Below are positions 3,638 to 22,286 of a stretch of DNA of 24,000 nt, piece after piece (the stretch's first letter is position 1; each line of letters starts with the position of its first letter). The notes beneath the pieces were generated by a model, which had not been told where the DNA came from, searched no databases, and saw only the letters and a list, made by a program, of their open reading frames with translations. Made by a program: the position numbers and the translations under genes. Origin of the DNA: Methanocaldococcus sp. FS406-22 (GTDB taxonomy: Archaea > AGJL01 > Methanococci > Methanococcales > Methanocaldococcaceae); assembly GCF_000025525.1 (NCBI RefSeq), contig NC_013887.1, forward strand, positions 110,729 to 134,728, in the 5' to 3' direction.

Positions 3638-3679
3638 TTTTTAGAATTACAGAAAATTTAACATAATTATTTTTTTGGT

Positions 3680-4618
3680 GTGATTATGAGAGTTGGGATC
3701 ACAGCAATAGTTCCACCTGAAATTATTTACTCAACCAATCATATTCCTTTGGATTTAAACAATTTTGTTCCCCAATCTAATGTACATCCTAAAAATAAAC
3801 TGTGTGCTTGGACTGCTTCATGGAGAGAGTTGATTTTAGAGGATAAAATTAAAATTAATAAATTAATTGTTGTTGCTGGAGGAGATTGTCAAAATTCCCT
3901 TGTTGATGCTGAAAAGATAGAATTGAAGAAAAAAATTCCTACGCATTATTTCTTTTATCAATTTGGAGATAAAGAACATTTTGAAAATGAAATAAAAAAA
4001 CTTATTGATTTTTTAGGAGGGGATGTTGATAAAGATATTTTAAGAGAAGTTTATAAAATAAAAAAACTTGCAAAAAAAGTTGATGAATTGTGCTATAAAG
4101 ATAAAATAAATGGGAAGGATGCATTTTATACCACAATTTCTGCAAGTGATTTAAAAGGAAACCCAAATGCATACAAAAAAGAGATTGAAAATTTATTAAA
4201 CAATGAGGAGAATGTTGAATATAGGTATAGAATTGCTTTAATTGGCATACCACCAATTTTTAGTGATTTTTATGAATATCTGAATGAAATAAATGTGCAT
4301 TGTGTTTATAACGAATTACCTTATGAGTTTGTGAGGATGGGAGGAGACTCAATAAAGAGTATAGTAGACACCTATTCAACATACACGTTTGCCAACCATA
4401 TAACTAAAAGAATAAAGATTATAAAGAGAGAATTAAAAAAGAGAAAGGTTGATGGAATAATCCACTATACACAAATGTGTTGTCATCATAAGTTAGAAGA
4501 TGAAATCCTCAGAGAATTTATTGATTACCCTATGCTGACAATAGAGGGAGATATTCCCCAAAAAACACCCGAACAAGTGAAGTTAAGAATAGAAGCATTT
4601 ATAGAGATGTTGGGATAG
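3680..4618 (+). CDS. 2-hydroxyacyl-CoA dehydratase (HgdB/HGD-D family)-like subunit, single copy
   Basis: 312 aa (GTG 3680 or ATG 3686). Overall HGD-D-like layout with conserved Cys positions (GGDCQNS; IHYTQMCCHHKLEDE). It is followed 2 nt later by a cognate-type activase gene. The family call is from motif recollection, not a search. Confidence 0.7.
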   Translation: MIMRVGITAIVPPEIIYSTNHIPLDLNNFVPQSNVHPKNKLCAWTASWRELILEDKIKINKLIVVAGGDCQNSLVDAEKIELKKKIPTHYFFYQFGDKEHFENEIKKLIDFLGGDVDKDILREVYKIKKLAKKVDELCYKDKINGKDAFYTTISASDLKGNPNAYKKEIENLLNNEENVEYRYRIALIGIPPIFSDFYEYLNEINVHCVYNELPYEFVRMGGDSIKSIVDTYSTYTFANHITKRIKIIKRELKKRKVDGIIHYTQMCCHHKLEDEILREFIDYPMLTIEGDIPQKTPEQVKLRIEAFIEMLG

Positions 4619-4620
4619 CT

Positions 4621-5301
4621 ATGATGGGTATTGACGTTGGCTCAACACACATAAAAATTGCGGATGGGAAAAGTTTTAAAAAATATCCAATAATTAAATT
4701 AAATGAAATATTAAAAAAGTACAATAACGATGATGTTTTTGCAACAGGATATTTTAGAAAGAGGTTTAAAAATCACATAACTGAAATTACTGCTGCTATA
4801 TATGGAGTTGATAAAGAAATTGATGTTATAATTGATGTTGGTGGGCAGGATACAAAGATAATAAACACAAAAACATTAGAGTTTGTGATGAATGATAAAT
4901 GTGGAGCGGGGACTGGATTATTTTTACAAACCATAGCTATGTATTTGAATGTCCCTATCGAAGATTTTGGTAAGTATTATTCAAAAGATCCCTTAAAGTT
5001 AAATAATACTTGTGCTGTTTTTTCGATTTCTGAAATCATCAATTATCTTGTAAATGGTTATAGCATTAAAGATATCATAGCATCTGTAAATTACACTATA
5101 GCAAAGAAAATAGCCAATATGAATCCATATGAATGTGAAACTATTGCTCTAATTGGTGGAGTAGCAGAGAATAAGGCATTTGTTAAGTATTTTAAAGAAG
5201 TTACTGAGAAAGACGTTTACATTCCTAAAAATCCACAGTTTATAAATGCAATAGGGGCGAGAAAATATGGAATTGAACACTCAGCAAAAAATAATCTTTG
5301 A
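4621..5301 (+). CDS. CoA-substrate-specific enzyme activase (HgdC/BcrAD_BadFG ATPase family)
   Basis: 226 aa. ASKHA phosphate motifs GIDVGSTHIKI and DVGGQDTKII, adenosine motif IGGVAEN, and the two cluster-bridging Cys contexts of HgdC-type activases (MNDKCGAGTG and NNTCAVFSISE). Confidence 0.85.
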   Translation: MMGIDVGSTHIKIADGKSFKKYPIIKLNEILKKYNNDDVFATGYFRKRFKNHITEITAAIYGVDKEIDVIIDVGGQDTKIINTKTLEFVMNDKCGAGTGLFLQTIAMYLNVPIEDFGKYYSKDPLKLNNTCAVFSISEIINYLVNGYSIKDIIASVNYTIAKKIANMNPYECETIALIGGVAENKAFVKYFKEVTEKDVYIPKNPQFINAIGARKYGIEHSAKNNL

Positions 5302-5839
5302 AATTTATGATTTGTATAAGAGATTTGAGTTGATGATAAATAACAATAGAAGCAAAACCAAAAAACAAATAGAAAAGATTAAAAATGAAATTATAGTTAA
5401 GGATATTAATGATGTTAGTTATGTTGATAGGGTTCAGGAAATTTTGTTGAATTATAGAGAGATTTGGGGTTTTGTTCATAAATCATCAATAAAACAGTGG
5501 ATTACAACTTCTAAAACTATAAGTGTAGCTGGAATGTTTCATAAAGACAATTTAATTGGGGTTATGGTTTATGGGGAAAAACCAAGTTACCTCAAAATTA
5601 ATTATATTGCAGTTAATAAAAGATTCAAAGACAATTCCCTTGGAGGATATTTTATCTCATTTTTAGAGAAAAAAGCTAAAAAATTACAAAAGAAGAAAAT
5701 ATATGCTGAAGTTCCAGGAGATAATGAGGGAGGATTGGGATTCTTCATAAAAAATGGATTTATAATTGAGGGTATTTTGAAAAATCATACAAGAGGTGGT
5801 AAAGATTTAGTATTAATGGCTAAATATTTAGAGGGATAA
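5267..5839 (+). CDS. GNAT-family N-acetyltransferase with ~70-aa N-terminal extension
   Basis: 190 aa. GNAT motif A region INYIAVNKRFKDNSLGGYFISFLEKKAKK and C-terminal FFIKNGF. The track start overlaps the activase by 35 nt, and the alternative ATG at 5333 (MINNNRS) would remove the overlap. The stop lies 2 nt before the next ATG. Confidence 0.7.
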   Translation: MELNTQQKIIFEIYDLYKRFELMINNNRSKTKKQIEKIKNEIIVKDINDVSYVDRVQEILLNYREIWGFVHKSSIKQWITTSKTISVAGMFHKDNLIGVMVYGEKPSYLKINYIAVNKRFKDNSLGGYFISFLEKKAKKLQKKKIYAEVPGDNEGGLGFFIKNGFIIEGILKNHTRGGKDLVLMAKYLEG

Positions 5840-5841
5840 AC

Positions 5842-6768
5842 ATGGTAGAATTTTTTGCATCATTAACGATTTCTGCAGGAGAAATTAAAAAAATGGTTGA
5901 ACTTTTAAAGAAACATGAACCAAAAAAATGGGTTTTTGAAAATGTGATTTTTACACCTTTGGTTTCATCGGAAAGTACTATAAAAGAAATTAGAAATTTA
6001 AAGAGAAAGTATAAAACCACTGTTATGTTTGATAGTGGAGGTTATTATGTTCAACAAGAAAAATTTGAAATATCTCAACTATTCTCGTTTTTAAGGGAAT
6101 TTTATAGAACTAATAAATGGGGAGATTGGTATGTCTTACCAGATTCTCCACCAGTTTCCTCTGATGCTGTAGATACTGCCTGGGGTAAAGTTTATGAAAC
6201 TGTATATTTTGCGAAAAGTTTTGCTGAAGAATTTAATGGGAAGATGGAGAAAAAGTTTATCCCTGTTGTTCAGGGCGTTAATAGGGATATGATTCATTAT
6301 TGTGTTAAAAATTATGCTGATTTAAATGTTAGAAGAATTGGCTTTGGAAGTTTTGGAACTTGTGGGAAAAGGAATCAAATTAATAGACTTACAAAAGACA
6401 GTTTAGAAAATCTAAGATATTTATCCAGGTTAGCAAAAGAATATGGATTCGAGTTGCATGCCTTTGGTATTGGTGGGGGAAGTTCTGTAAATAAAATTAG
6501 GGATTATGTAGATAGCTTCGATAGTAGTAGTTGGGATAAAGCAGGGGGATTTGGGGATATATTTTTCCCAAATTCAAGAACTATTAATATAACTGGAAAA
6601 TCTCCAAGAACTTCTTCAAAAAATTATATTGGATATAAGTACCTAATTGAAAAATTTAGAAATGGGCATAAATGTTACTTTTGTGAAGATTTAAGTAAGT
6701 TAAAAGAGTATAAAATATATAGATCTTTACATAATATTATAGTATTGTATGAAATGGTGAAAGAATGA
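5842..6768 (+). CDS. Minimal tRNA-guanine-transglycosylase-fold protein (DpdA-like candidate DNA/RNA base-exchange enzyme)
   Basis: 308 aa. TGT landmarks occur in the canonical order: MFDSGGYY (6025-6048; TGT DSGGFQ), VLPDSP, IPVVQGV (TGT GIVQGG), IGFGSFG, HAFGIGG, DSFDSSSW (Asp at 6520-6522 aligns with the catalytic MFDCV Asp), and HKCYFC...19 aa...LHN (6667-6684; TGT Zn site CxCxxC...H). There are no PUA or C-terminal tRNA-recognition domains. Confidence 0.75.
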   Translation: MVEFFASLTISAGEIKKMVELLKKHEPKKWVFENVIFTPLVSSESTIKEIRNLKRKYKTTVMFDSGGYYVQQEKFEISQLFSFLREFYRTNKWGDWYVLPDSPPVSSDAVDTAWGKVYETVYFAKSFAEEFNGKMEKKFIPVVQGVNRDMIHYCVKNYADLNVRRIGFGSFGTCGKRNQINRLTKDSLENLRYLSRLAKEYGFELHAFGIGGGSSVNKIRDYVDSFDSSSWDKAGGFGDIFFPNSRTINITGKSPRTSSKNYIGYKYLIEKFRNGHKCYFCEDLSKLKEYKIYRSLHNIIVLYEMVKE

Positions 6769-7505
6769 AAGGGAGTTACCATATTCAGCATAATGCTAAA
6801 CCAGAAATTATAAGGAAACTAATTGAATATAACCCAAATGCCAAAAAATCAGAACTAAAAAAAGCATTTCCTGAGATAAAATCAAGTATAATTGATGATA
6901 ATTATACAATTATGAACAAACTCATAAACGTTAAAGATAAAAATGAAATTGAAAATATTTTAAAGATGGATGATGAAATGTTCAATAACTACCTCCATTA
7001 TAAGCTTTACTCATCTAAACTACCAATTGGATGGTCTTACAGGTGCGTAATAAACATATTGTATGAAGAATATAATGGTAAAAAAATTAACTATAATGAT
7101 ATTGAACAAAAAGTTAAAGAAAAAGCGTTTGATGAAGAGCTAGGAGGAATATCATTTAGTAGTAATAGCGTTCGTGGGGCGATTAACTTTATAAGGTCTT
7201 TATCCCCTTCACCAATTGACGATAATAACGTTTTCAATCTTAGAGATTATTGTCAGCCACATCTATTATTGTGGGGGGTGGACTATCTTTATAAAAAACA
7301 GTGGGGAGAAGACTATGGATCATTAATGCTTTTGGATGAGGAGAAAGTTGAAGAACTTTCTAAATTTTGTTTAATTAAAGATGATATATTAGATGATTAC
7401 CTAAAAGAACTTGATTTTATGTATGATTTTGTCGAAATATCTATAAAAGCGTTTGGAAGATATGTGAGATTGAAAAGAACATGGAATTTTAGTGATATTT
7501 TATAA
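6765..7505 (+). CDS. Hypothetical protein (246 aa), no family recognised
   Basis: Its ATG overlaps the upstream stop (ATGA at 6765-6768), giving good coding continuity in the operon. I cannot place any motif with confidence. LPIGWSYR is only vaguely reminiscent of the FPLRYGW motif I associate with DUF4007. Confidence 0.55.
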   Translation: MKGSYHIQHNAKPEIIRKLIEYNPNAKKSELKKAFPEIKSSIIDDNYTIMNKLINVKDKNEIENILKMDDEMFNNYLHYKLYSSKLPIGWSYRCVINILYEEYNGKKINYNDIEQKVKEKAFDEELGGISFSSNSVRGAINFIRSLSPSPIDDNNVFNLRDYCQPHLLLWGVDYLYKKQWGEDYGSLMLLDEEKVEELSKFCLIKDDILDDYLKELDFMYDFVEISIKAFGRYVRLKRTWNFSDIL

Positions 7506-7518
7506 AAGGGGGAGGGGT

Positions 7519-8028
7519 ATGGATTACATTACACTAATAAATTACATAAAGAGAAATTATTCCTCTAAATTCTTAACTGATAGTCAAAAGGAAGCATATA
7601 ACAAATTAAAAAAATTTCTTTTATTTGATAATGTTGTAAATCTTTATGGAAAAAGTGGGGTTGGAAAAACGTTTTTAGGATGGGTGTTTGCAAAAGATAA
7701 TAACTTTATTTATTTTAAAACTGAAGAAGAGTTCAAAAAATACAAAACAACAAGAAAAATGAATGTAATTATTGATAATGGTGAACTAAATGATGGAAGA
7801 AATATTAGGAGGTTAATTTCTCTAAAGGCAAATAAGGCAATTTATATTTCAAAAGGAGAAACTTTAGATTACAGTGTAAAGCTAACATTGAACTGGCGTG
7901 ATGTTGAACATGTTTTAGAGAATATCTCTCCAATTATTGAGAAAAATAAAAATATATATATTGACAACTTTTTTGATAGTGATTTAAATTTATGGAAAGT
8001 ATTTAAGGTGATGACATATGGATATTAG
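7519..8028 (+). CDS. Small P-loop NTPase (169 aa)
   Basis: Walker A GKSGVGKT (7648-7671) and a Walker-B-like hhhhD in NVIIDNG. I prefer the ATG at 7519, preceded by GGGGGAGGGG (7508-7517), over the track start 7492, which overlaps the previous gene. Confidence 0.65.
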   Translation: MDYITLINYIKRNYSSKFLTDSQKEAYNKLKKFLLFDNVVNLYGKSGVGKTFLGWVFAKDNNFIYFKTEEEFKKYKTTRKMNVIIDNGELNDGRNIRRLISLKANKAIYISKGETLDYSVKLTLNWRDVEHVLENISPIIEKNKNIYIDNFFDSDLNLWKVFKVMTYGY

Positions 8029-11000
8029 CTTATTGGAATACATAATAAATAAGAGTCCTGTTATAGACACCTATTCTGCTGAAAACTTAATAAATGAACC
8101 AAATTTAGTTGTGGATAAATATGAAAGCCACTTAAAAACATATATAAAGGTTGATGATGAGGAATTTGATAAAAGATTTATAAGGGAAATTAAAAAAGGA
8201 AAAACAGTAAAAGGCTATATTTCAGCTCCTTATGGTTATGGAAAGACAAGTAAAGCCTTGAGTTTGTGGGATTATTGTAAGAAAAATAACATCCTTGCAA
8301 TTCCTCCATTTAAATTCGATGGAAAACTTGATACAATAATGGATGCAGTTTATGGTTGGACAAGATATGTTTACAAACTTAAATATCCTGAGTATTTAGA
8401 CAAAATTGAGAAAATTTATAGAAAATATAAGGGTCTAAGTATAGAAAAAGAAATTGAATATTTAATGAAAAATAGAAATTTAACGGAAAATGAAGCTAAA
8501 GAGATAGTTTATGATCTTTTAAATAGGGGGAAATTAATTGTATCAATTACACCAAAAGATCTAATGAATTTCTTAAAGGAAATGAATGAAATCATAAAAG
8601 AACATTTTGAAGGTATGGCAATTTTCGTTGATGAAGTTCAGGGAATAAAAAATATGGAAATTATAAATAACTTAAGAAACTTTATTTTTGAGTTAAGCAT
8701 TAACAACATAGGTTTAGGTATTTTGTTTATAATTCCTGATTATCAGGAGGAAGATTTAAACATAAGAGCTGGAGATCTAATTGATAGACTACGAAAAGAT
8801 GGATTTTATTTAAATTTAGTAAATATATATAGTGTCAATTTCGCAGAGGACTTATGGAAAAAATACGGAGAACTTTTACAATTTAACCCCTATGATATCA
8901 TAACAGAAGATTGTTTAAGAAGTATTGGAGAGATATCATCAAGAGAAGATTTAGGAAAAGGTCCAAGAACAGTTATAGGAGCGTTTAAATGTGCATGTAT
9001 GAAATATAAAGAGAAATTTGAACCATATACAGTGTTTGATTTTATTAATGATATCTTAAATGGAGAGATTAAGTTTATACACCAAAAGTTTTTAGATGCT
9101 TTAAATGAAGGACTATCATTAAAGAAAGTTGATTCAGACAAAAAGAGAAAGGTTATTAAACTTGTAGGAGCATTTCCAAGAGGAATTTCCGAAGAAAAAA
9201 TAAAAGATTATGGATTATATGATGAATACGAGGAATTGTCAAGATTTTACTATGGAACAGAAATCGTTTATGCACTTGAAGGATATACTCTAAAAGGTCT
9301 TCTAAAAGGTGAAACAGCTACATATGTTGAACAGCATATAAGAAAATTTAGAAGCATATTTAATGAGTCTTGGGAAGGAGAAATGATTGACGCATTCATA
9401 ACTTATATATTACCTGAGATATTTCCAAGGAAAAAAGGAAGTCAAATCATGGGTTGGAGAATAGATGAAAAGTATCCTATAGTTGGGGGGTATTATCACC
9501 AATTAACAGGAACATTTAATCCGAAATATCCATTTAGAACTATTGGAGTTTATTCCTTACGATATGATACTAACGAAAAGGAGAATACATTGGTAGATGT
9601 TGAATTTAGGTTTATATTAGATAAAAACTGTAAGAATAATGATTTAGTTATTGATTATAGAAATGGCGAAGTAATTTTTAGATTTAATGTTTTAAAGAAA
9701 GTTGGAGAAGATAAACTTCCAGGAGATCTGAAAAAACTCCAACAATATGTTAAACCGCAAGAAGTAACCCCAATGTTTATGCTATGTCTATTAAATTATT
9801 TTGACAAGATAAAAGAAAAAGAAGATGAATATGCAAAGCATGAAAGTGAGATTAATGCACTAAAATCAATTCTAATAAGATATTTGAAGAGATTTTTGTT
9901 TTCTGATGATTTGGTAGAGAAATATAATTTAAGAAAACGACAGGAAAAAATCGTTGAAGAAGTATTTAACAGAATTTGTGAATATAAATTTAGAGATTAC
10001 AGCACACTAATACATTCCCCTAACTGGCATAAAGATTTGGAGAGATATAGAATTTTATTAAATTCATTATCAATTTCGAAAAGAAGAGGAGAAGAATTTG
10101 AAACCACTAAAAAGAAATTGGTTTCTATATTAACAGGTAGTAAAAATCCAAATGTTGCAGGATTTAAAGAAGAATGTGAATACGGTAAGTGGAAGGATTT
10201 AATTAATTTAAAACATTGGGGAAAAGATGAAAAAATTAGAGTAGAGTTGAAGAAACATCCACTTGAAGAAATGATATTAAAAGAATTTATTGAAAAGTGG
10301 ATACAGCCAATAAGTGTTGATGAAATAGTTAGTTATGGAATGAGTTTAGGATACATCCCAGAAGAAGTTGAAGAAATTTTAAAAATCCTTGAGAGTAGAA
10401 GATACATTGAAATTAACAAGGGATATGTCTTCAAATCTAGAGAAATAACAAATACTGATGTTCTAAATAAATTTGATGAAGTAGAAAATCTTGCAAAAAA
10501 AGTAGTGACTCTCTATATGAAGTATGGGAAAAACGTTCCTAACATACTTGTTAAACATTCAAAAAGAGAAGAGATCAAACAACAAACTGATCCTGATTTG
10601 TTATATAAAGAGCTAGAAATTATTGAGAGTTGGGAGAAGTCATTAAAGGAATATCTTAAAACTATAGAGAATGAAATAAAAAATGATAAAGAAGAATTGA
10701 TAAATAAAGTGCTAAAAATAGGGGAAAAAATAGATGACCTGAAAAATAAAATAGATAACATAAAAGAAGAGATTATTAAAACTCACTATTCATTGGGAGG
10801 AATCGTCAGGCATTTGGAAGAGCAAATAAAAATAACAAAAAAGAAATGCAACAAAATATCAAAAGATCTACTAATACTGAAAGAAAAAATAAATTCTACA
10901 AGAGATCTTGAACCTCTTGCTGAATGTCTAAATGAAGCAAAGAAAACATTTAAAAATCTGAATTATGAGTATGAGGATGTTCTTACAAAATACAATAAAT

Positions 11001-11818
11001 TTAAATCATGGTTAGGGATTTTAAGAAAATTGGAAGAATTATATGAAAAAATTGATGTTTATAGAGATTATATTGACATCAAAGAAGAACATGATAAATT
11101 CAATGAATTGATAGAAGATATAATCCAAGGATTTGCAAGAGAAGGGGCAGATTATTTAGATATGGATAGAGACGTAGAAGAGGACATAAAGTTAATAGAC
11201 GAGAATATAAAGAAAAAAGAAAGAAATCTAAGAAATGAATTTAATAAGATACAAGAAGAAATAAGAACGAAAATGAATATATTAGCTCAAACGTTAAAAC
11301 CATTGAACATTCAGCATTATTCATATAGGGAAGCATTCAGTATTGAAGATAGAGAGACAGCATATCAAAATCTAGTAAGAAATGTAAAATCATATATAAA
11401 AGAAGTTGTAGATAAGTTAAATGATCAAGTTAATCATCTAAAAGCAGAAGTTGAACTTAGATTAAATAATAATGAAAACTATATCTCTAAATTGAAAGCA
11501 ATAGGAGAAGAAGTAGAGAATATAGATATCGAAGTTATAGATAAAGACAACTTAATGGAATCTGTTGAAGAAATAAAATCCAAAATACTTGATATTTGGG
11601 AAAATTTAGAAAAAGTTAGAAAAGAAATAAAAAGAGAGATCATTGAAAGAAGTAAATCAGAAAAATCTGAGGAAGAAATAAAAATAATTGAAATATTAAA
11701 CAAATATGGTGAGATACCAATTGAAAAACTCTCAAAATATTTAAATATGGATATTGAGGGGACTTTAAAATGGTTATTAAAAATGGAAAATGTAGAAATA
11801 ATTGTAAGGAAGAAATAA
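8018..11818 (+). CDS. Large P-loop ATPase, BrxC/PglY (DUF499)-like, with C-terminal coiled coil and putative winged-helix modules
   Basis: 1266 aa. Walker A APYGYGKTS (8225-8251) and Walker B IFVDE (8621-8635). Size and N-terminal ATPase placement match BrxC/PglY. About 10590-11650 is extremely K/E/I/N/L-rich with a heptad-like pattern. wHTH-like stretches are PISVDEIVSYGMSLGYIPEEVEEILKILESRRYIEINKGYVF and the C-terminal IIEILNKYGEIPIEKLSKYLNMDIEGTLKWLLKMENVEII. The ATG is preceded by GGTGAT. The family call is inferred. Confidence 0.6.
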   Translation: MDISLLEYIINKSPVIDTYSAENLINEPNLVVDKYESHLKTYIKVDDEEFDKRFIREIKKGKTVKGYISAPYGYGKTSKALSLWDYCKKNNILAIPPFKFDGKLDTIMDAVYGWTRYVYKLKYPEYLDKIEKIYRKYKGLSIEKEIEYLMKNRNLTENEAKEIVYDLLNRGKLIVSITPKDLMNFLKEMNEIIKEHFEGMAIFVDEVQGIKNMEIINNLRNFIFELSINNIGLGILFIIPDYQEEDLNIRAGDLIDRLRKDGFYLNLVNIYSVNFAEDLWKKYGELLQFNPYDIITEDCLRSIGEISSREDLGKGPRTVIGAFKCACMKYKEKFEPYTVFDFINDILNGEIKFIHQKFLDALNEGLSLKKVDSDKKRKVIKLVGAFPRGISEEKIKDYGLYDEYEELSRFYYGTEIVYALEGYTLKGLLKGETATYVEQHIRKFRSIFNESWEGEMIDAFITYILPEIFPRKKGSQIMGWRIDEKYPIVGGYYHQLTGTFNPKYPFRTIGVYSLRYDTNEKENTLVDVEFRFILDKNCKNNDLVIDYRNGEVIFRFNVLKKVGEDKLPGDLKKLQQYVKPQEVTPMFMLCLLNYFDKIKEKEDEYAKHESEINALKSILIRYLKRFLFSDDLVEKYNLRKRQEKIVEEVFNRICEYKFRDYSTLIHSPNWHKDLERYRILLNSLSISKRRGEEFETTKKKLVSILTGSKNPNVAGFKEECEYGKWKDLINLKHWGKDEKIRVELKKHPLEEMILKEFIEKWIQPISVDEIVSYGMSLGYIPEEVEEILKILESRRYIEINKGYVFKSREITNTDVLNKFDEVENLAKKVVTLYMKYGKNVPNILVKHSKREEIKQQTDPDLLYKELEIIESWEKSLKEYLKTIENEIKNDKEELINKVLKIGEKIDDLKNKIDNIKEEIIKTHYSLGGIVRHLEEQIKITKKKCNKISKDLLILKEKINSTRDLEPLAECLNEAKKTFKNLNYEYEDVLTKYNKFKSWLGILRKLEELYEKIDVYRDYIDIKEEHDKFNELIEDIIQGFAREGADYLDMDRDVEEDIKLIDENIKKKERNLRNEFNKIQEEIRTKMNILAQTLKPLNIQHYSYREAFSIEDRETAYQNLVRNVKSYIKEVVDKLNDQVNHLKAEVELRLNNNENYISKLKAIGEEVENIDIEVIDKDNLMESVEEIKSKILDIWENLEKVRKEIKREIIERSKSEKSEEEIKIIEILNKYGEIPIEKLSKYLNMDIEGTLKWLLKMENVEIIVRKK

Positions 11819-12720
11819 AGAAAATAAAAACTCCTTGTTACTTGAAAATAAAACATAAACTTTCTCTTCTATTTTTTGATTTTGAAGAAATATCTTATGA
11901 TGATTTTTGGAGTATGATTGATGATCCAAATATTGAAATTGAATATAAGAAGTACGTAATATTGGACAAATTTGATGATCGACTACCAATTTATGAAATA
12001 GATCATAATCCTTTTACAGGGGAATTAAATAAAATCTTGAAAGAAAAATATCATCTAATTGAAAATTATATCAAGACACAAAAAGATGTTAAAGAGATTA
12101 TAATCTCTAAAGTAAACAAAAGAACTCCAAAAACAGTTGTTTTATATTTAATAGATGGGTTATCTTATGTTGATTATGTCGAAGCACAAATTCCTTATGA
12201 AGGAGAACCAATATTCGTTAATGGAGAAACATCAACTAAAAATGGTTTAATGAATATCATTTATGGAAAAAATAACATTCCAATTGCAAAAGAGCTCCAA
12301 AAATTTGGATATAGGTGCTTTGGACAGACATATTGGAATAGGAAAAATGAACTAACAGATATTTTGTTTAGATATTTTAATGAAAAATACATTTTTCACA
12401 GTGATGAAGAAATCTACAATGTAATAAATAAATACAGATCATCAAAAAAATATATCCAGATATATAGGGGAGGGTTGGATGAGTATGCACATAAATTGAG
12501 AGACATTAGTAAAAAATCCATAATTAACAAAATAAAAGAGATATTTGAAGATATAAATAAGCTAAATGATATTTTAAATAACATAAAAGAACCATATTTA
12601 GTCGTAATTACTTCAGATCATGGTATAAAGTGGAATTTTGAAGATCCTCATAAAAAAGGCAACCATAAAGAACTTACATTTGAAACGTGTTTTGTGCCTT
12701 TAATTATAATTGAGGGATAG
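11770..12720 (+). CDS. PglZ-type alkaline-phosphatase-superfamily protein
   Basis: Metal and nucleophile landmarks occur in PglZ order: VVLYLIDGLSY (Asp 12154-12156), ETSTKNGLMNIIYG, GGLDEYAH, VVITSDHG (12610-12624). The track start 11770 overlaps the previous ORF by 49 nt. An in-frame TTG at 11842 (MKIKHKL...) is the more likely start. Confidence 0.7.
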   Translation: MVIKNGKCRNNCKEEIKKIKTPCYLKIKHKLSLLFFDFEEISYDDFWSMIDDPNIEIEYKKYVILDKFDDRLPIYEIDHNPFTGELNKILKEKYHLIENYIKTQKDVKEIIISKVNKRTPKTVVLYLIDGLSYVDYVEAQIPYEGEPIFVNGETSTKNGLMNIIYGKNNIPIAKELQKFGYRCFGQTYWNRKNELTDILFRYFNEKYIFHSDEEIYNVINKYRSSKKYIQIYRGGLDEYAHKLRDISKKSIINKIKEIFEDINKLNDILNNIKEPYLVVITSDHGIKWNFEDPHKKGNHKELTFETCFVPLIIIEG

Positions 12721-12721
12721 T

Positions 12722-13882
12722 ATGCTATTCATAGGAAGAGAAAAGCTAAAAGACAGATTAGGCAATGATATTTATATAGATGCCTCAAAATCCCATGCAA
12801 TTTTTATTTGTGGTAAAAGAGGTAGTGGGAAGAGTTACACATTGGGAGTTTTAGTCGAAGAACTTCAAGAAAAGTATCCAGATTATTTAAAAATTATTAT
12901 CGATCCAATGGGGATATTTTGGACTATGGTAGAACCAAATGAAGAACAAGAAGAAGAACTTTGGGATTGGAATTTGTATGCTGAAGGATATCCAGTTAAA
13001 CTAATAGTTCCCGGAGAAATAGAGGAAAGGTTTGATGAAGATGTTATAAGAGAGTTAGAAAATAGGGGAATAGAGTTTAAAAAACTTCTTTTAAATCCTT
13101 CTGATATCTCAGCAGAGGGGTGGTGTGATTTATTCAATTTAAATATAAACGAAATGATGGGAATAGCCTTGTATAGAGCAATTGATAATATTGAGAAAGA
13201 TTTTTTCACAATAGACGATATTATTTATGAGGTTGAAAGAGATACAAAATCAAAGGAATCTACAAAAGAAGCATTAATAAATCGTCTAAACATGGCAAAA
13301 AAATGGGGAATTTTTTCAGATGAATACATCCCAATAGAAGATATTTTTGAAAGAAATGCAATAAATGTAATTGATTTAAGTGTTATTGAAAGCGGAAGAT
13401 ATGGACTGAGAGATTTAATAGTATCGATAATTGCAAAATATTTATTTAATCAACGATTGAAAGCAAGAAAAAAAGAAATGCTAAATTTACAATCAAAAAT
13501 GCCAAAAGTTTGGTTATTTATTGATGAAGCCCATAATTTCATCCCTTCTGGGAAATCAACATTATCAAAAGAGATTCTAATAAGATGGGCAAAGGAGGGA
13601 AGACAACCAGGATTGAACTTAGTTATAGCTACTCAACAACCATCAGCAATAGATAATGAAGTTTTAAGCCAATGCGACATCATCTTTGCACATAAAGTAA
13701 CAAATAGAGAGGATATAAATGCATTAAATAAGCTCAATCAAGAGTATATGGGAAAAGAGTTAAAAGTATATATTAAAGATCTAAATAAAGGAGAGTGTGT
13801 TTTTATTGATGATGAAAAAGAATTCTTAAAAATTATAAAAATAAGGCCAAGAAAAAGTAAACATGGAGGAGGAGAGAAGTAA
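12722..13882 (+). CDS. HerA/FtsK-superfamily ATPase (DUF87-like core)
   Basis: Walker A GKRGSGKSYT (12812-12841), Walker B VWLFIDEAHNF (13508-13540), then GLNLVIATQQPSAIDNEVLSQCD, typical of HerA/VirB4-like ATPases. The ATG at 12722 is preceded by GAGGGA and lies 1 nt after the upstream stop. The track start is a TTG at 12710. Confidence 0.8.
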   Translation: MLFIGREKLKDRLGNDIYIDASKSHAIFICGKRGSGKSYTLGVLVEELQEKYPDYLKIIIDPMGIFWTMVEPNEEQEEELWDWNLYAEGYPVKLIVPGEIEERFDEDVIRELENRGIEFKKLLLNPSDISAEGWCDLFNLNINEMMGIALYRAIDNIEKDFFTIDDIIYEVERDTKSKESTKEALINRLNMAKKWGIFSDEYIPIEDIFERNAINVIDLSVIESGRYGLRDLIVSIIAKYLFNQRLKARKKEMLNLQSKMPKVWLFIDEAHNFIPSGKSTLSKEILIRWAKEGRQPGLNLVIATQQPSAIDNEVLSQCDIIFAHKVTNREDINALNKLNQEYMGKELKVYIKDLNKGECVFIDDEKEFLKIIKIRPRKSKHGGGEK

Positions 13883-13938
13883 AATATATCGGAATTTCTA
13901 TGAAAAATGCTATTATGTATTATATATGGTGATTAATA

Positions 13939-15033
13939 ATGAAATTCTTCAATAGAGAGAAAGAAATCAAAGAAATTTTATCAATCTTAGAGGGAGAGCC
14001 AAATTTAATTTATTTTATCTACGGCTCTATAAATTCTGGTAAAACTACATTAATAAAACATATCATAGAAAATAGACTAAATGATAATTACAAAGTTTTC
14101 TACATTAATTTCAGAACCTACTTAATATCAGAAAAGAGGGAGTTTATTGAAGCTATTTTCACCACTAAAAAAGATGATTTCTTTGAAAAAATAAAGGATA
14201 AATCAGAGGTTTTAAATTTGATAACCAAAGGAGCTAAGATTCTAACTGGTATTCCAATTCCTGAGATTGAATTTGATAAGTTATTTGAAGAGAAGATAAA
14301 CGATGTTTTTCAGTATTTAAACAGTTTATTGTTAGCGGTTAAAAAGAGTGGGAAAAAGCCAATCCTAATATTAGATGAATTACAAATGATTAAAGATGTT
14401 GTGTTAAATGGGCAGAAATATTTATTAAAAGAGCTATTTCAATTTTTAGTATCTTTAACAAAGGAACAACATCTATGCCATGTTTTTTGTCTAAGTTCTG
14501 ATAGCTTGTTTATTGAGTATGTTTATAACGCTGGAGAGTTAGAAGGAAGAGCTGATTATATTTTAGTGGATGATTTTGATAAACAAACTGCTTTAAAGTT
14601 TATTGATTTCTTAGCAAGGGAGAATAATATGGAACTTTCTGATGAGGATAAGGAATTAATCTACTCTTATGTTGGTGGAAAGCCAATTTTAATAATAAAG
14701 GTATTTGATAAGCTAAAAACAGAAAGAAAATTAAAAGATATTTTAGATACTATACTTAAAGAAGAAGCACAAAAATTAAGATACTTTTTAAAAGATCTGG
14801 ACTATATAAAACCAAAAGTTAATATTGAAGATGAAGTTATTGAAATTAAAAAAGAAGACATAATTGAGGCGTTAAGATTGTTTAAAGATAACTATGAAAT
14901 TAGCGATGATAAAATTCCAAAACCAGTTTATATTTATTTAATTAAAAGAAACATTTTATTCTTAGACCCTATTGAAGGGACTCTAAAACCGCAATCATTT
15001 TTAATCTGGAATGCGATAAAAAGGATTTTATAA
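13939..15033 (+). CDS. Archaeal ATPase family protein (Arch_ATPase/PF01637-like)
   Basis: 364 aa. [12 protein letters not shown]... N-terminus, Walker [10 protein letters not shown] (14023-14049) and Walker B ILILDELQ. It resembles the multi-copy M. jannaschii archaeal ATPase paralog family, and by position is probably the MJ0147 counterpart (from memory). GGTGAT precedes the ATG. Confidence 0.85.
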
Positions 15034-21887: not shown

Positions 21888-21905
21888 AAATTACATCAAA
21901 TTAGG

Positions 21906-22286
21906 ATGGTAACCATGAAAATAATAAAAACTGAATATGACAAAATTAAGCCCTACATTACCAAAGATGGCTCAATAATTAGAGAATTAATGCATCCAAA
22001 CATTTATAAAAATGTAAAACAAAGTTTAGCGGAGGCAATAGTTCCTGTAGGTTCTAAAACTTTATTACATAAACATCACAAATCTGAAGAGATATATTAT
22101 ATCTTAGAGGGAAAGGGATTAATGACATTGGGTAATGAAAAATTTGAAGTTAAAAAAGGAGATGCCATATTAATTCCTCCTGAAACTCCCCATAAAATTG
22201 AAAATATTGGTAATGTCCCTTTAAAGATATTGTGTTGCAGTTTTCCACCATATTCTCATGAAGATACTGAAATATTAGAAAAATAA
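21906..22286 (+). CDS. Cupin-domain protein
   Basis: 126 aa. Cupin motifs HKHHKSEEIYYILEGKG and GDAILIPPETPHKIEN. The start may be the ATG at 21915 (MKIIKTEY). Confidence 0.8.
   Translation: MVTMKIIKTEYDKIKPYITKDGSIIRELMHPNIYKNVKQSLAEAIVPVGSKTLLHKHHKSEEIYYILEGKGLMTLGNEKFEVKKGDAILIPPETPHKIENIGNVPLKILCCSFPPYSHEDTEILEK

What the first reader, a model, noticed from the sequence alone, without database searches (positions are those of the whole stretch)
5842..6768. Stand-alone 308-aa TGT barrel with an HxCxxC...H variant of the zinc site and no tRNA-recognition domains
Seen: TGT landmarks occur in canonical order: FDSGGYY, VLPDSP, VVQGV, GFGSFG, HAFGIGG, and SFDSSSW (Asp codon 6520-6522 in the position of the covalent-intermediate Asp of MFDCV). 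HKCYFC is then followed 19 residues later by SLHNI, where TGT has CxCxxC...HN. Established: archaeal ArcTGT is roughly twice this size and carries C-terminal and PUA domains for tRNA binding, whereas DNA-acting DpdA proteins are minimal TGT barrels. Inference: the substrate is more likely DNA, or another non-tRNA nucleic acid, than tRNA G15. The first Zn ligand being His instead of Cys is a distinguishing family trait.
Basis: partly seen in the sequence, partly recalled or inferred. Interest (0 to 1): 0.8.

Follow-up and report, generated by a model that had tools for sequence, protein, structure and literature searches.

The report
DNA-type transglycosylase in a BREX-related island
The gene encodes a stripped-down relative of the enzymes that swap guanine for 7-deazaguanine in tRNA, and it sits, paired with an acetyltransferase, inside a recently described but untested nine-gene anti-virus island of a methanogen, where it most likely marks the cell's own DNA.

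Summary
ORF 5842-6768 (+) encodes a 308-aa single-domain TGT barrel. It keeps both catalytic Asp, the base-binding Asp and Gln, and an invariant HxCxxC...HN zinc motif in place of CxCxxC...HN.

It is not stand-alone. It is the partner of the upstream GNAT acetyltransferase, and the two are fused in many bacteria. Both lie in a conserved cassette: GNAT, TGT, BrxA-like, BrxB-like NTPase, BrxC-like, PglZ-like, HerA. This is the BREX-Related Capture (BRC) system, predicted by computation only in NAR 2026 (gkag035).

I add support: a hyperthermophilic phage carries only the GNAT+TGT pair, in its replication module.

New here:
- Methanococcales members of the system.
- A methanogen-only add-on, an HGD-D [4Fe-4S] protein plus its BcrAD ATPase activator, that moves with the cassette.
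- The same pair lies beside bacterial-type queA-tgt in 13 metagenome loci. In one copy of another deazaguanine defence cassette it lies at the upstream end, where another copy has QueF.

This suggests a QueF-like preQ0 reductase and an N-acetyl-preQ1 DNA mark (speculative). No biochemistry exists, and a Cap10-like protein-linked role is not excluded.

The parts
3680..4618 (+). HGD-D family [4Fe-4S] protein (2-hydroxyacyl-CoA dehydratase / double-cubane reductase superfamily). The likely true start is ATG 3686. Three conserved Cys lie in NKLCAW, GGDCxN and xCHH.
   Evidence: Pfam HGD-D E 9e-32. Cys conservation. 51% identical to the copy in the M. barkeri BRC locus. It is the first gene of the block 3671-13907 that is colinear with M. 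indicus, where the flanks are unrelated.
4621..5301 (+). BcrAD/BadFG-type ATPase activator ('archerase') with the two cluster-bridging Cys (NDKCGAGTG, NNTCAVF). It overlaps the GNAT gene by 35 nt.
   Evidence: Pfam BcrAD_BadFG E 3.5e-24 and TIGR00241 E 5e-40. Alignment.
5267..5839 (+). GNAT N-acetyltransferase, the conserved partner of the TGT-like protein. It is fused to the TGT N-terminus in 24 of 83 loci.
   Evidence: Pfam Acetyltransf_1 E 2e-6. Family HMM hit and synteny. The family profile matches amine N-acetyltransferases in the PDB.
5842..6768 (+). The TGT-superfamily barrel of the finding, 308 aa and a single domain.
6031..6033 (+). Asp64 codon (FDSGG). Position of the general acid/base: Z. 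mobilis D102 (my recollection), E. coli D89 (residue count), DpdA D95 (PMC10164549).
   Evidence: Invariant in A1. hhalign against E. coli TGT.
6142..6144 (+). Asp101 codon (LPD). Proposed base-recognition Asp, equivalent to ArcTGT/DpdA D130 and E. coli D143.
   Evidence: Invariant and present in 85/85 copies. The equivalence rests on spacing and on the strand-then-Asp pattern, not on a confident alignment.
6271..6273 (+). Gln144 codon (VVQG). Position of TGT Gln203 and DpdA His181. The family uses Q (39 copies) or H (25 copies).
6520..6522 (+). Asp227 codon (SFDSSSW). Position of the covalent nucleophile: ArcTGT D249 and E. coli D264 by alignment here; DpdA D256 per PMC10164549.
6667..6735 (+). 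Zinc-site variant H276-x-C278-x-x-C281 ... H297-N298.
   Evidence: Invariant. H297 aligns with ArcTGT H307. H276/C278/C281 align with E. coli C302/C304/C307. The motif is specific to the clade.
6765..7505 (+). BrxA-like (DUF4007-like) predicted DNA-binding protein. Its start overlaps the TGT stop. A gene of this family follows TGT within 200 nt in 78 of 83 loci.
   Evidence: Homology to L001 and L002 proteins. HMM annotation. Role assigned by PMC12839542.
7492..8028 (+). BrxB-like small STAND NTPase with an intact Walker A motif (GKSGVGKT).
   Evidence: It fits the consensus NLYG..GVGKTFL of the paper's alignment.
8018..11818 (+). BrxC-like (DUF6079-type) large protein, 1266 aa.
   Evidence: 30% identical over its full length to the M. 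barkeri protein, E 8e-143. A bacterial orthologue gives a weak BrxC_BrxD Pfam hit, E 0.0075.
11770..12720 (+). PglZ-like alkaline-phosphatase-fold protein, the predicted effector. Near-invariant residues: D51, D129, T156, D237, H241, D283, H284.
   Evidence: Weak Pfam hits to PglZ, Sulfatase and Phosphodiest. 41% identical to the M. barkeri protein. Conservation.
12710..13882 (+). HerA/FtsK-type translocase ATPase, 390 aa, Walker A GKRGSGKS. It is the last gene of the colinear block.
   Evidence: Pfam DUF87 and PADLOC HerA E 2e-28. 58% identical to the M. barkeri HerA. Block end.

Best explanation
The ORF encodes the base-exchange subunit of a DNA-marking module inside a BREX-Related Capture (BRC) defence island.

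Proposed mechanism:
- The protein is a one-domain TGT barrel. Asp227 attacks C1' of a target guanine nucleotide, Asp64 acts as general acid/base, and Asp101 and Gln144 read the Watson-Crick edge. An incoming 7-deazaguanine base then resolves the covalent intermediate. The chemistry is the same as in tRNA TGTs and the DNA enzyme DpdA.
- The barrel is held by a zinc site with His2Cys2 ligands (H276, C278, C281, H297) in place of Cys3His.
- It works with the adjacent GNAT acetyltransferase, which is fused to it in many bacteria. It is probably brought to DNA by the BrxA-like protein that always follows it.
- The resulting mark would let the BrxB/BrxC/PglZ/HerA machinery spare host DNA.
- In methanogens the cassette also carries an HGD-D [4Fe-4S] enzyme and its ATP-driven activator. 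I propose these tailor the base precursor, most likely by reducing preQ0 to preQ1 in organisms without QueF. The GNAT could then acetylate the aminomethyl group.

Status of each step:
- Shown here: fold, conserved catalytic residues, operon membership, conservation across phyla.
- Inferred: DNA as substrate, 7-deazaguanine as the base, and the self-marking role.
- Speculative: preQ1 and acetylation.
For: Fold and residues:
- AF2 model with pLDDT 88.5. All top-50 PDB matches are TGT, ArcTGT or DpdA.
- Invariant D64, D101, D227, H276, C278, C281, H297 and N298; Q144 is nearly invariant.
- D227 aligns with ArcTGT D249 and H297 with ArcTGT H307. Motif-level alignment to E. coli TGT.
- DpdA uses the equivalent D95 and D256, shown by mutagenesis (PMC10164549).

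System membership:
- Every cassette protein is homologous to the M. barkeri 3 locus. The GNAT of that locus is printed, and a Methanosarcina barkeri PglZ is listed, in the BRC paper's supplement.
- The paper predicts DNA modification by GNAT and TGT.

Conservation:
- The same gene order occurs in 47 full loci from Methanococcales, Methanosarcina, Halorientalis, Chloroflexota, Poribacteria, Latescibacterota, Gemmatimonadota and Desulfovirgula; truncated Armatimonadota and Acidobacteriota contigs carry its first genes.
- TGT is followed by BrxA-like within 200 nt in 78 of 83 loci.
- GNAT is fused in 24 loci, upstream in 17 and downstream in 25.

Phage copy:
- Thermocrinis Great Boiling Spring virus encodes only GNAT+TGT of this family, with HxCxxC...HN kept. 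The genes lie beside its sliding clamp, helicase, nuclease and PolA genes. This parallels phage DpdA.

HGD-D/BcrAD pair:
- Present in all 12 methanogen BRC loci fetched, in two different arrangements.
- The block colinear between the window and M. indicus is exactly HGD-D to HerA.
- The pair lies divergently next to bacterial-type queA-tgt in 13 of 80 metagenome loci.
- In the SLATT-TGT-Ogg-QueC-TIR cassette, L094 has HGD-D+BcrAD at the upstream end, where L178 has QueF.

GNAT:
- Its profile matches primary-amine N-acetyltransferases.
- Formyl- and methyl-dPreQ1 are known DNA bases (PMC10516641).
Against: - No experiment exists for any member. The BRC paper is purely computational.
- The window protein is below Pfam's TGT cut-off and has no DpdA (PF23859) hit.
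- The cassette has no DpdB, DpdC, QueC, QueD or QueE.
- The equivalence of D101 rests on spacing only.
- Cap10 shows that a TGT-like defence protein with a conserved active site can hold a protein-linked base instead.
- The HGD-D family is widespread as an apparently housekeeping pair in Methanosarcinales, ANME and Methanoperedens. BRC-linked copies from Methanococcales and Methanosarcina are not sister groups in a crude NJ tree.
- Halorientalis and all bacterial loci lack the pair.
- The QueF/HGD-D positional swap rests on one locus each.
- The queA-tgt adjacency would equally fit an epoxyqueuosine reductase.
Confidence: 0.6

Rival explanations
1. Cap10-like role. The TGT-like protein does not modify DNA as its primary job. 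It binds, or transfers from, a 7-deazaguanine that is covalently attached to a partner protein of the system, as Cap10 does with the NDG-modified CD-NTase in type IV CBASS. That would regulate the Brx/PglZ/HerA machinery.
For: Cap10 is a TGT-fold defence protein of similar size. Its conserved base-reading residues (D73, S74, D122, K154) and catalytic D248 occupy the same motif positions. A second minimal-TGT family sits in SLATT-TGT-Ogg-QueC-TIR cassettes. Defence-linked TGTs are therefore not all DNA enzymes.
Against: The conjugating enzyme in CBASS is the QueC-like Cap9. No QueC-family gene occurs in the window cassette or was seen in the other BRC loci annotated (not searched for there). 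The partner here is a GNAT, not a CD-NTase or TIR. A phage carries GNAT+TGT alone among replication genes, with no candidate target protein of the system. Short forms keep only the DNA-binding BrxA-like and BrxC-like proteins.
Confidence: 0.13
2. Effector glycosylase. The enzyme forms the covalent Asp-C1' intermediate on DNA, foreign or at specific sites, but resolves it by hydrolysis. This creates abasic sites, so the protein acts as a restriction effector and not as a self-marking enzyme.
For: The catalytic Asp pair is all that base excision needs. No dedicated base-synthesis genes are present in most loci. PglZ is only a nicking-type effector according to the literature cited.
Against: The base-recognition residues for an incoming purine and the GNAT fusion are conserved. 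A lytic-type phage would not carry an enzyme that depurinates DNA in its own replication module. The methanogen loci add a reductase pair that is elsewhere linked to deazaguanine genes.
Confidence: 0.1
3. tRNA enzyme. It is a diverged ArcTGT/QTGT paralogue that modifies tRNA or another RNA, and the defence-like neighbourhood is incidental.
For: The best PDB matches by E-value are ArcTGT and QTGT, marginally ahead of DpdA. Some database sources name homologues 'queuine/archaeosine tRNA-ribosyltransferase'.
Against: It lacks the C-terminal and PUA domains of ArcTGT. The operon structure is strictly conserved with Brx, PglZ and HerA genes across 2 domains and at least 8 phyla. The cassette sits at different chromosomal sites in related Methanocaldococcus. 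The family is rare: 120 of 185,579 species genomes and 108 clusters at E<=1e-30. That rarity does not fit a housekeeping tRNA enzyme.
Confidence: 0.05
4. For the add-on only. HGD-D/BcrAD is an epoxyqueuosine reductase (a QueG/QueH analogue) or an unrelated housekeeping reductase. Its presence in methanogen BRC cassettes would then say nothing about the base inserted.
For: The divergent adjacency to queA-tgt fits the missing last step of queuosine synthesis as well as it fits QueF. Many copies lie in housekeeping-looking contexts.
Against: BRC and SLATT-TGT-Ogg-QueC-TIR cassettes contain no QueA, so they would have no epoxide substrate. The pair moves with the BRC block in Methanococcales. It also appears downstream of HerA in Methanosarcina-type loci (L001, L008, L130, L166). 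In L178, QueF lies at the upstream end of the cassette, where L094 has the pair.
Confidence: 0.3

Closest known systems
TGT component of the BREX-Related Capture (BRC) system (Nucleic Acids Res 2026;54(3):gkag035, PMC12839542)
   Same: The same seven components occur in the window: GNAT, TGT, a DUF4007/BrxA-like protein, a STAND NTPase/BrxB-like protein, a DUF6079/BrxC-like protein, PglZ and HerA. All are homologous to the M. barkeri locus used in that paper.
   Different: - The window's organism group (Methanococcales) does not appear among the BRC sequences in the text and supplements held (the only Methanococcus entry is not in a BRC list).
- The methanogen form has two extra genes, HGD-D and BcrAD, that the paper does not mention.
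- Seen from the TGT side, 17 of 64 loci with enough downstream sequence show no PglZ+HerA (a few, such as L007, are ambiguous), whereas the paper treats HerA as universal.
- The system has not been tested experimentally.
Bacterial DpdA (DNA preQ0 insertase, PDB 7UI4; PF23859) and phage DpdA1-4
   Same: TGT barrel with equivalent general-acid Asp, base-binding Asp, His/Gln position and nucleophile Asp. Defence or anti-defence context. A phage-encoded copy exists.
   Different: - No PF23859 hit for the window protein. A bacterial homologue scores 27.6 bits, just at threshold.
- No DpdB or DpdC.
- 308 aa against 436 aa for the 7UI4 chain.
- The zinc motif starts with His.
- An obligate GNAT partner.
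- Structural similarity to DpdA (TMq 0.66) is no higher than to tRNA TGTs.
Archaeosine tRNA-guanine transglycosylase (ArcTGT, PDB 1IQ8)
   Same: Best sequence-profile and Foldseek match. The spacing of catalytic residues is nearly identical: 64/101/144/227 here against 95/130/169/249 (positions 95, 130 and 169 are from my recollection of the ArcTGT literature).
   Different: ArcTGT is 582 aa with three C-terminal domains, including PUA, for tRNA recognition. Here there are none. ArcTGT has CxCxxC. ArcTGT is a universal housekeeping gene, whereas this family is rare and island-borne.
Cap10 of type IV CBASS (bioRxiv 2025.04.06.647259; Science 2025)
   Same: A minimal TGT-fold protein in an anti-phage operon with a conserved deazaguanine-binding pocket.
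   Different: Cap10 works with the QueC-like Cap9 and a CD-NTase. Neither is present here. The Cap10-like family found in passing (L094 type) has CxCxxC and only marginal similarity to the window protein.

Membership tests
TGT superfamily (PF01702) | (beta/alpha)8 TGT barrel fold | tested here: met
   AF2 pLDDT 88.5. All top-50 Foldseek PDB matches are TGT, ArcTGT or DpdA, with probability 1.00.
TGT superfamily (PF01702) | Pfam model score above the gathering threshold | tested here: not met
   19.1 bits against 26.3 for the window protein. Bacterial family members pass: P0044 scores 42.7 bits.
TGT superfamily (PF01702) | Nucleophile Asp and general acid/base Asp | tested here: met
   D227 aligns with ArcTGT D249 and E. 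coli D264. D64 aligns with E. coli D89. Both are invariant.
TGT superfamily (PF01702) | Zinc site CxCxxC...H | tested here: not met
   The first ligand is His (H276-x-C-xx-C...H297) in 85/85 family copies. The position aligns with E. coli C302. Metal binding itself cannot be tested here.
TGT superfamily (PF01702) | Guanine / 7-deazaguanine base-exchange activity | not testable with these tools
   Needs an enzyme assay.
ArcTGT (tRNA G15) | C-terminal C1-C3/PUA tRNA-binding domains | tested here: not met
   The protein ends 11 residues after the HN motif, and the model is a single domain.
Bacterial Dpd system (DpdA) | Match to the DpdA model PF23859 | tested here: not met
   No hit at E<=10. PADLOC gives only a weak 'TGT' hit, E 0.023.
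Bacterial Dpd system (DpdA) | Neighbouring DpdB (ParB-like ATPase) and DpdC (DUF328) | tested here: not met
   No such domains in any window ORF.
BRC (BREX-Related Capture) system | All seven components (PglZ, BrxC-like DUF6079, BrxB-like STAND NTPase, BrxA-like DUF4007, HerA, GNAT, TGT) in one operon | tested here: met
   Window genes 5267-13882 lie on one strand and overlap or abut. Each except the GNAT is homologous by BLASTP to the M. barkeri BRC locus. Pfam gives only weak direct hits to PglZ (E 0.012) and BrxC (E 0.0075 in an orthologue).
BRC (BREX-Related Capture) system | Identity of the reference locus with the published set | tested here: met
   The L001 GNAT translation matches WP_048108637.1 as printed in the paper's supplement. 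A Methanosarcina barkeri PglZ, WP_048108644.1, is listed there.
BRC (BREX-Related Capture) system | Anti-phage or anti-plasmid activity | not testable with these tools
   No experimental data are reported in PMC12839542.
Type IV CBASS Cap10 | Operon partner Cap9 (QueC-like) and a CD-NTase with a Gly-rich N-terminus | tested here: not met
   No QueC or nucleotidyltransferase domain in the window cassette.

The most novel reading that the evidence does not exclude
The HGD-D/BcrAD pair is a previously unrecognised ATP-driven iron-sulfur preQ0 (nitrile) reductase, a non-orthologous replacement of QueF in anaerobic archaea. With it, the GNAT-TGT pair of the methanogen BRC island writes a new DNA base into the chromosome as a self mark: 7-(acetylamino)methyl-7-deazaguanine, or N-acetyl-dPreQ1. 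This would be the first 7-deazaguanine DNA modification of a cellular archaeon. It would also be a ninth natural deazaguanine DNA base.
Probability: 0.2. Interest if true: 0.85.

Novelty: new variant of a known kind. Interest (0 to 1): 0.6.

Why it matters
- 7-Deazaguanine DNA modification has so far been demonstrated in bacteria (Dpd) and in viruses. A chromosomal, defence-linked version in cultured hyperthermophilic methanogens (Methanocaldococcus sp. 16A, M. indicus SL43) and in Methanosarcina barkeri 3 would extend it to cellular archaea. It would also make the computationally proposed BRC system directly testable in available strains.
- The clade-specific His2Cys2 zinc site and the obligate GNAT partner define a TGT lineage distinct from bDpdA and DpdA1-4. 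They point to chemistry beyond preQ0 insertion.
- The recurrent linkage of an HGD-D/activator pair with three different deazaguanine gene sets nominates a function for a widespread archaeal 'hypothetical dehydratase' family. It also nominates a candidate for the missing preQ1-forming or queuosine-finishing step in organisms without QueF, QueG or QueH.

Tried and rejected
- Direct library look-ups were nearly uninformative for the window protein. Pfam TGT was sub-threshold, NCBIfam gave nothing, PADLOC gave E 0.023, and a PDB sequence search gave nothing. Only the family profile and the structure model gave clear answers.
- hhalign of the family against a single E. coli TGT sequence gave low probability. 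I use it only at motif level.
- I looked for island boundaries. There is no tRNA gene in the window. No integrase domain was found among the window ORFs scanned. The block is delimited only by colinearity with M. indicus.
- I tested whether BRC-linked HGD-D proteins form one clade. They do not in a crude NJ tree. The pair was therefore either recruited twice or the tree is unresolved.
- I considered that HGD-D/BcrAD is merely a housekeeping neighbour of cbf5. I rejected this for Methanococcales, because the pair moves with the cassette to a different site in M. indicus and Methanothermococcus.
- I considered that the pair supplies an unusual acyl-CoA for the GNAT. This is not excluded, but its links to queA-tgt and QueC cassettes favour deazaguanine chemistry.
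- A literature search for any link between queuosine and 2-hydroxyacyl-CoA dehydratase-type enzymes found nothing relevant.
- The supplement alignment of the BRC TGT was illegible in the held text. I could not check whether its authors noted the His ligand.
Full report
**1. The observation**

ORF 5842-6768 (+) is real and encodes 308 aa. Codon 6520-6522 is GAT, which is Asp227.

On sequence alone the link to TGT is weak:
- Pfam PF01702 gives E 7e-4 and 19.1 bits, below the 26.3-bit threshold.
- NCBIfam gives no hit.
- PADLOC gives E 0.023.
- A PDB sequence search gives no hit.

The link becomes firm with relatives. 426 homologues were found. A 32-sequence alignment (A1) has these invariant residues: D64 (FDSGG), D101 (PD), G145, GFGSF, H206, F226-D227, W231, H276, C278, C281, H297 and N298. 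Q144 is nearly invariant.

The A1 profile aligns HxFG...SFDSSSW with HLFG...DLFDSASY of P. horikoshii ArcTGT. This places D227 on the nucleophile D249. It also places the family's HN on H307-N308, the fourth zinc ligand.

hhalign against E. coli TGT has low overall probability, so I use it at motif level only. It places D64 on D89, VVQG on IIQG, FD227 on FD264, H276/C278/C281 on C302/C304/C307, and HN on H333-N.

The AlphaFold2 model (pLDDT 88.5, pTM 0.89) is a single barrel with no extra domain. All of its top 50 PDB matches are ArcTGT, bacterial or eukaryotic QTGT, or the DNA enzyme DpdA (E 4e-9 to 2e-7, TMq 0.57-0.69).

The D101 equivalence (ArcTGT/DpdA D130) rests on spacing and is an inference. 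The spacing is 64/101/144/227 here against 95/130/169/249 in ArcTGT; the ArcTGT positions 95, 130 and 169 are from my recollection of the literature.

**2. The zinc-site variant is a clade trait**

HxCxxC is present in 85 of 85 family copies of at least 300 aa in the fetched loci, and CxCxxC in none.

I searched 1.84 billion cluster representatives with the family profile. HxCxxC persists through the core family and a sister group of about 355-387 aa ('HRCPFC'). Canonical CxCxxC returns only at about E 1e-20.

The family is rare:
- 108 clusters at E<=1e-30.
- 120 of 185,579 species-representative genomes.

**3. What surrounds it**

The window is archaeal. It encodes Cbf5, has about 29% G+C, and its best homologues are from Methanocaldococcus at 81-87% identity.

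Nine genes on one strand overlap or nearly abut from 3680 to 13882:
- HGD-D
- BcrAD activator
- GNAT
- TGT-like
- a 246-aa protein
- a 178-aa P-loop protein
- a 1266-aa protein
- a 316-aa protein
- a HerA-type ATPase

Methanosarcina barkeri 3 and bacterial metagenome contigs have the same order from GNAT to HerA. In the bacteria GNAT and TGT are one polypeptide.

This is the 'BREX-Related Capture (BRC)' system described by comparative genomics alone in Nucleic Acids Res 2026;54(3):gkag035. Its components are PglZ, DUF6079 (BrxC-like), an active STAND NTPase (BrxB-like), DUF4007 (BrxA-like), HerA, GNAT and TGT. It was reported in 45 taxa, with a proposed GNAT/TGT self-DNA modification.

Evidence that the window locus belongs to it:
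- The M. barkeri GNAT I fetched is the sequence printed in that paper's supplement. A Methanosarcina barkeri PglZ is listed there too.
- Every window protein from TGT to HerA is homologous to its M. barkeri counterpart, with E from 5e-18 to 1e-174. The GNAT is too diverged for BLASTP but is recovered by the family HMM.
- The 178-aa protein fits the paper's NLYG..GVGKTFL consensus.
- The 316-aa protein gives weak PglZ and alkaline-phosphatase Pfam hits. It keeps near-invariant D51, D129, T156, D237, H241 and D283-H284.

**4. Conservation seen from the TGT side**

I annotated 83 loci with HMMs built from the cassette proteins.
- TGT is followed within 200 nt by the BrxA-like gene in 78 of 83 loci.
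- Of the 64 loci with enough downstream sequence, 47 have PglZ+HerA and 17 show none. These short forms are TGT-BrxA-BrxC-GNAT, or GNAT-TGT-BrxA-BrxC with other neighbours. A few, such as L007, are ambiguous.
- GNAT is fused in 24 loci, directly upstream in 17 and downstream of HerA in 25.

The tight, nearly constant unit is therefore GNAT plus TGT plus the BrxA-like and BrxC-like proteins.

**5. Evidence that the GNAT+TGT pair is a self-sufficient nucleic-acid module**

Thermocrinis Great Boiling Spring virus (BK013347.1) encodes a 135-aa GNAT and a TGT of this family. The TGT is 38% identical over 99% of the query. FDSGG, LPD, GFGSF, SFDSTGW and GHVCLFC...MHN are all kept, and a frameshift in the assembled sequence splits the ORF.

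These two genes lie immediately upstream of the virus's sliding clamp, helicase, PD-(D/E)XK nuclease and PolA genes. No Brx genes are present. The corresponding BFVD model is by far the best viral structural match (E 4e-22, rmsd 1.7 A). The paper describing the virus does not discuss the gene.

This mirrors phage DpdA enzymes, which modify phage DNA after replication (PMC10516641). It is my strongest argument for DNA as the substrate. It remains an inference.

**6. A methanogen-specific add-on**

All methanogen BRC loci carry an HGD-D protein of about 311 aa with three conserved Cys, consistent with a [4Fe-4S] site with an open coordination position. They also carry a BcrAD-type activator with the two cluster-bridging Cys.
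- In Methanococcales the pair lies upstream of GNAT: window, L005-L007 and metagenome loci L097-L100.
- In Methanosarcina-type loci it lies downstream of HerA: L001, L008, L130 and L166.
- Halorientalis and all bacterial loci lack it.

blastn colinearity between the window and M. indicus runs exactly from 3671 to 13907, with unrelated flanks. In Methanothermococcus it also starts at 3675. The pair therefore belongs to the transferable block.

The BRC paper and its held supplements do not mention the pair.

**7. What the add-on may do**

The HGD-D family has 613 hits at E<=1e-10. It is common in Methanosarcinales, ANME-2, Methanoperedens and Thermoplasmata. There it often appears as a lone HGD-D+BcrAD pair in housekeeping-looking surroundings.

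Three other associations all involve 7-deazaguanine genes:

(i) In 13 of 80 metagenome loci retrieved with the family, spanning four diverged groups, HGD-D(+BcrAD) lies divergently next to queA and a bacterial-type tgt of about 370 aa. One NCBI genome, L091, shows the same arrangement.

(ii) A conserved cassette SLATT, TGT-like (about 327 aa, CxCxxC), Ogg-HhH, QueC, TIR occurs in several loci. It is evidently a TIR/SLATT counterpart of the Cap9/Cap10/Cap11 ancillary genes of type IV CBASS. It carries variable deazaguanine-supply genes at its ends:
- QueF directly upstream in L178.
- HGD-D+BcrAD at the same upstream end in L094.
- A second TGT plus a Vut_1 (YhhQ-type) transporter in L180.
- Nothing in L177 or L179.

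(iii) The BRC loci themselves.

The function common to all three settings is most simply supply of preQ1, that is, a QueF-like reduction of the preQ0 nitrile. From my own knowledge, ATP-driven relatives of this superfamily (double-cubane cluster proteins) reduce small triple-bonded substrates, which makes the chemistry plausible.

If this is right, the GNAT would acetylate the aminomethyl group. Its profile matches primary-amine N-acetyltransferases. The parallel is the known formyl (DpdN) and methyl (DpdM) derivatives of dPreQ1.

This chain is speculative:
- The QueF/HGD-D swap rests on one locus each.
- Association (i) also fits an epoxyqueuosine reductase.
- The BRC-linked HGD-D copies of the two methanogen orders are not sisters in a crude NJ tree.
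- The haloarchaeal locus has no such pair.
- I found no literature linking this enzyme class to queuosine.

**8. Rivals**

*tRNA role.* This is unlikely. The protein has no PUA or C-terminal domains, the family is rare and island-borne, and its operon is strictly conserved.

*Cap10-like role.* Cap10 of type IV CBASS is a TGT-fold protein that holds a protein-linked 7-amido-7-deazaguanine. A protein-conjugate role therefore cannot be excluded. However, BRC lacks the QueC-like conjugating enzyme, and the phage copy has no candidate target.

*Glycosylase-effector role.* This is possible but fits the phage copy and the GNAT fusion poorly.

**9. Comparison and novelty**

The protein works like DpdA and ArcTGT in its predicted chemistry. 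It fails membership tests for ArcTGT (no tRNA-binding domains) and for bDpdA (no PF23859 hit, no DpdB or DpdC). It departs from the canonical TGT zinc motif.

It is a member of the TGT lineage already noted, without detail, in the BRC paper. The finding is therefore not categorically new.

What is new:
- The Methanococcales representatives, including cultured strains.
- The nine-gene variant with an iron-sulfur reductase and its activator.
- The phage copy.
- The short forms.
- The clade-defining His ligand.

**10. Verdict**

I class the finding as a new variant of a known kind and rate interest at about 0.6.

Noticed in passing
Metagenome loci L101-L103, L110-L113, L128, L132, L169, L172, L174; NCBI locus L091: Homologues of the window's HGD-D (45-53% identity), usually with the BcrAD activator, lie divergently next to queA and a bacterial-type tgt of about 370 aa. 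This occurs in 13 of 80 retrieved metagenome loci from four diverged groups, plus L091. It suggests a role in queuosine or preQ1 metabolism, as a QueF or a QueG/H analogue.
   Followed up: partly
L094:274-6382; L177:6116-9871; L178:5975-9798; L179:6562-9861; L180:4945-10280: A conserved cassette SLATT, minimal TGT-like (about 327 aa, CxCxxC), Ogg-HhH, QueC, TIR. It looks like the Cap9/Cap10/Cap11 ancillary set of type IV CBASS placed in a TIR/SLATT (Thoeris-like) system. The genes at its ends vary: QueF (L178), HGD-D+BcrAD (L094), a second TGT plus a Vut_1 transporter (L180), or none. The TGT-like family has 534 homologues.
   Followed up: partly
L086 (BK013347.1) 3953-5243: Thermocrinis Great Boiling Spring virus encodes a GNAT plus a TGT of the window's family, directly upstream of its sliding clamp, helicase, nuclease and PolA genes. 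The TGT reading frame is split by a frameshift in the assembled genome. The paper describing the virus does not discuss these genes.
   Followed up: yes
e.g. L034:6550-9972, and 47 further mostly Chloroflexota-type loci: A protein of about 1140 aa with an RNA polymerase alpha-CTD-like domain and sigma-70 regions 2 and 4 recurs in 48 loci; in L034 it lies immediately upstream of the TGT gene. A 794-aa alpha-CTD protein recurs in the short-form loci. Neither is mentioned in the BRC paper text held.
   Followed up: partly
L014, L023, L024, L027, L032, L042, L049, L053, L054, L064, L068, L071, L081; IMG/VR contig L087: Short forms of the system lack PglZ, HerA and usually BrxB. They are TGT-BrxA-BrxC-GNAT, or GNAT-TGT-BrxA-BrxC (about 1160 aa), sometimes followed by a second BrxA-BrxC pair. 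Other conserved neighbours include an 1893-aa DEAD-box helicase and a 662-aa STAND/UvrD-like protein.
   Followed up: partly
L007:11684-16028 (Methanothermococcus sp. Ax23): A 4.4-kb insertion encoding four proteins, one of them RAMP-superfamily (CRISPR-associated type), sits between the BrxA-like and BrxB-like genes of an otherwise colinear cassette.
   Followed up: no
window 13939-15033: An MJ1010-like archaeal ATPase (PF01637 + PF21690) follows HerA in the window. It is absent from the otherwise syntenic Methanocaldococcus sp. 16A locus. That locus has instead a 383-bp segment homologous to window 21898-22280.
   Followed up: partly
window 3680-3688: The mechanical GTG start of the HGD-D ORF (3680) is probably wrong. 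Homologues begin at the ATG at 3686 (MRVGITA...). That leaves a gap of about 48 nt after the cbf5 stop.
   Followed up: yes
Representatives P0434-P0483: A sister group of TGT-like proteins of about 355-387 aa shares the HxCxxC motif (mostly HRCPFC) but lacks GFGSF.
   Followed up: no
Residue 144 of the family (window 6271-6273): The base-reading position is Gln in 39 family copies and His in 25, including the phage copy. tRNA TGTs use Gln and bacterial DpdA uses His181. This may reflect different base or substrate preferences within the family.
   Followed up: no
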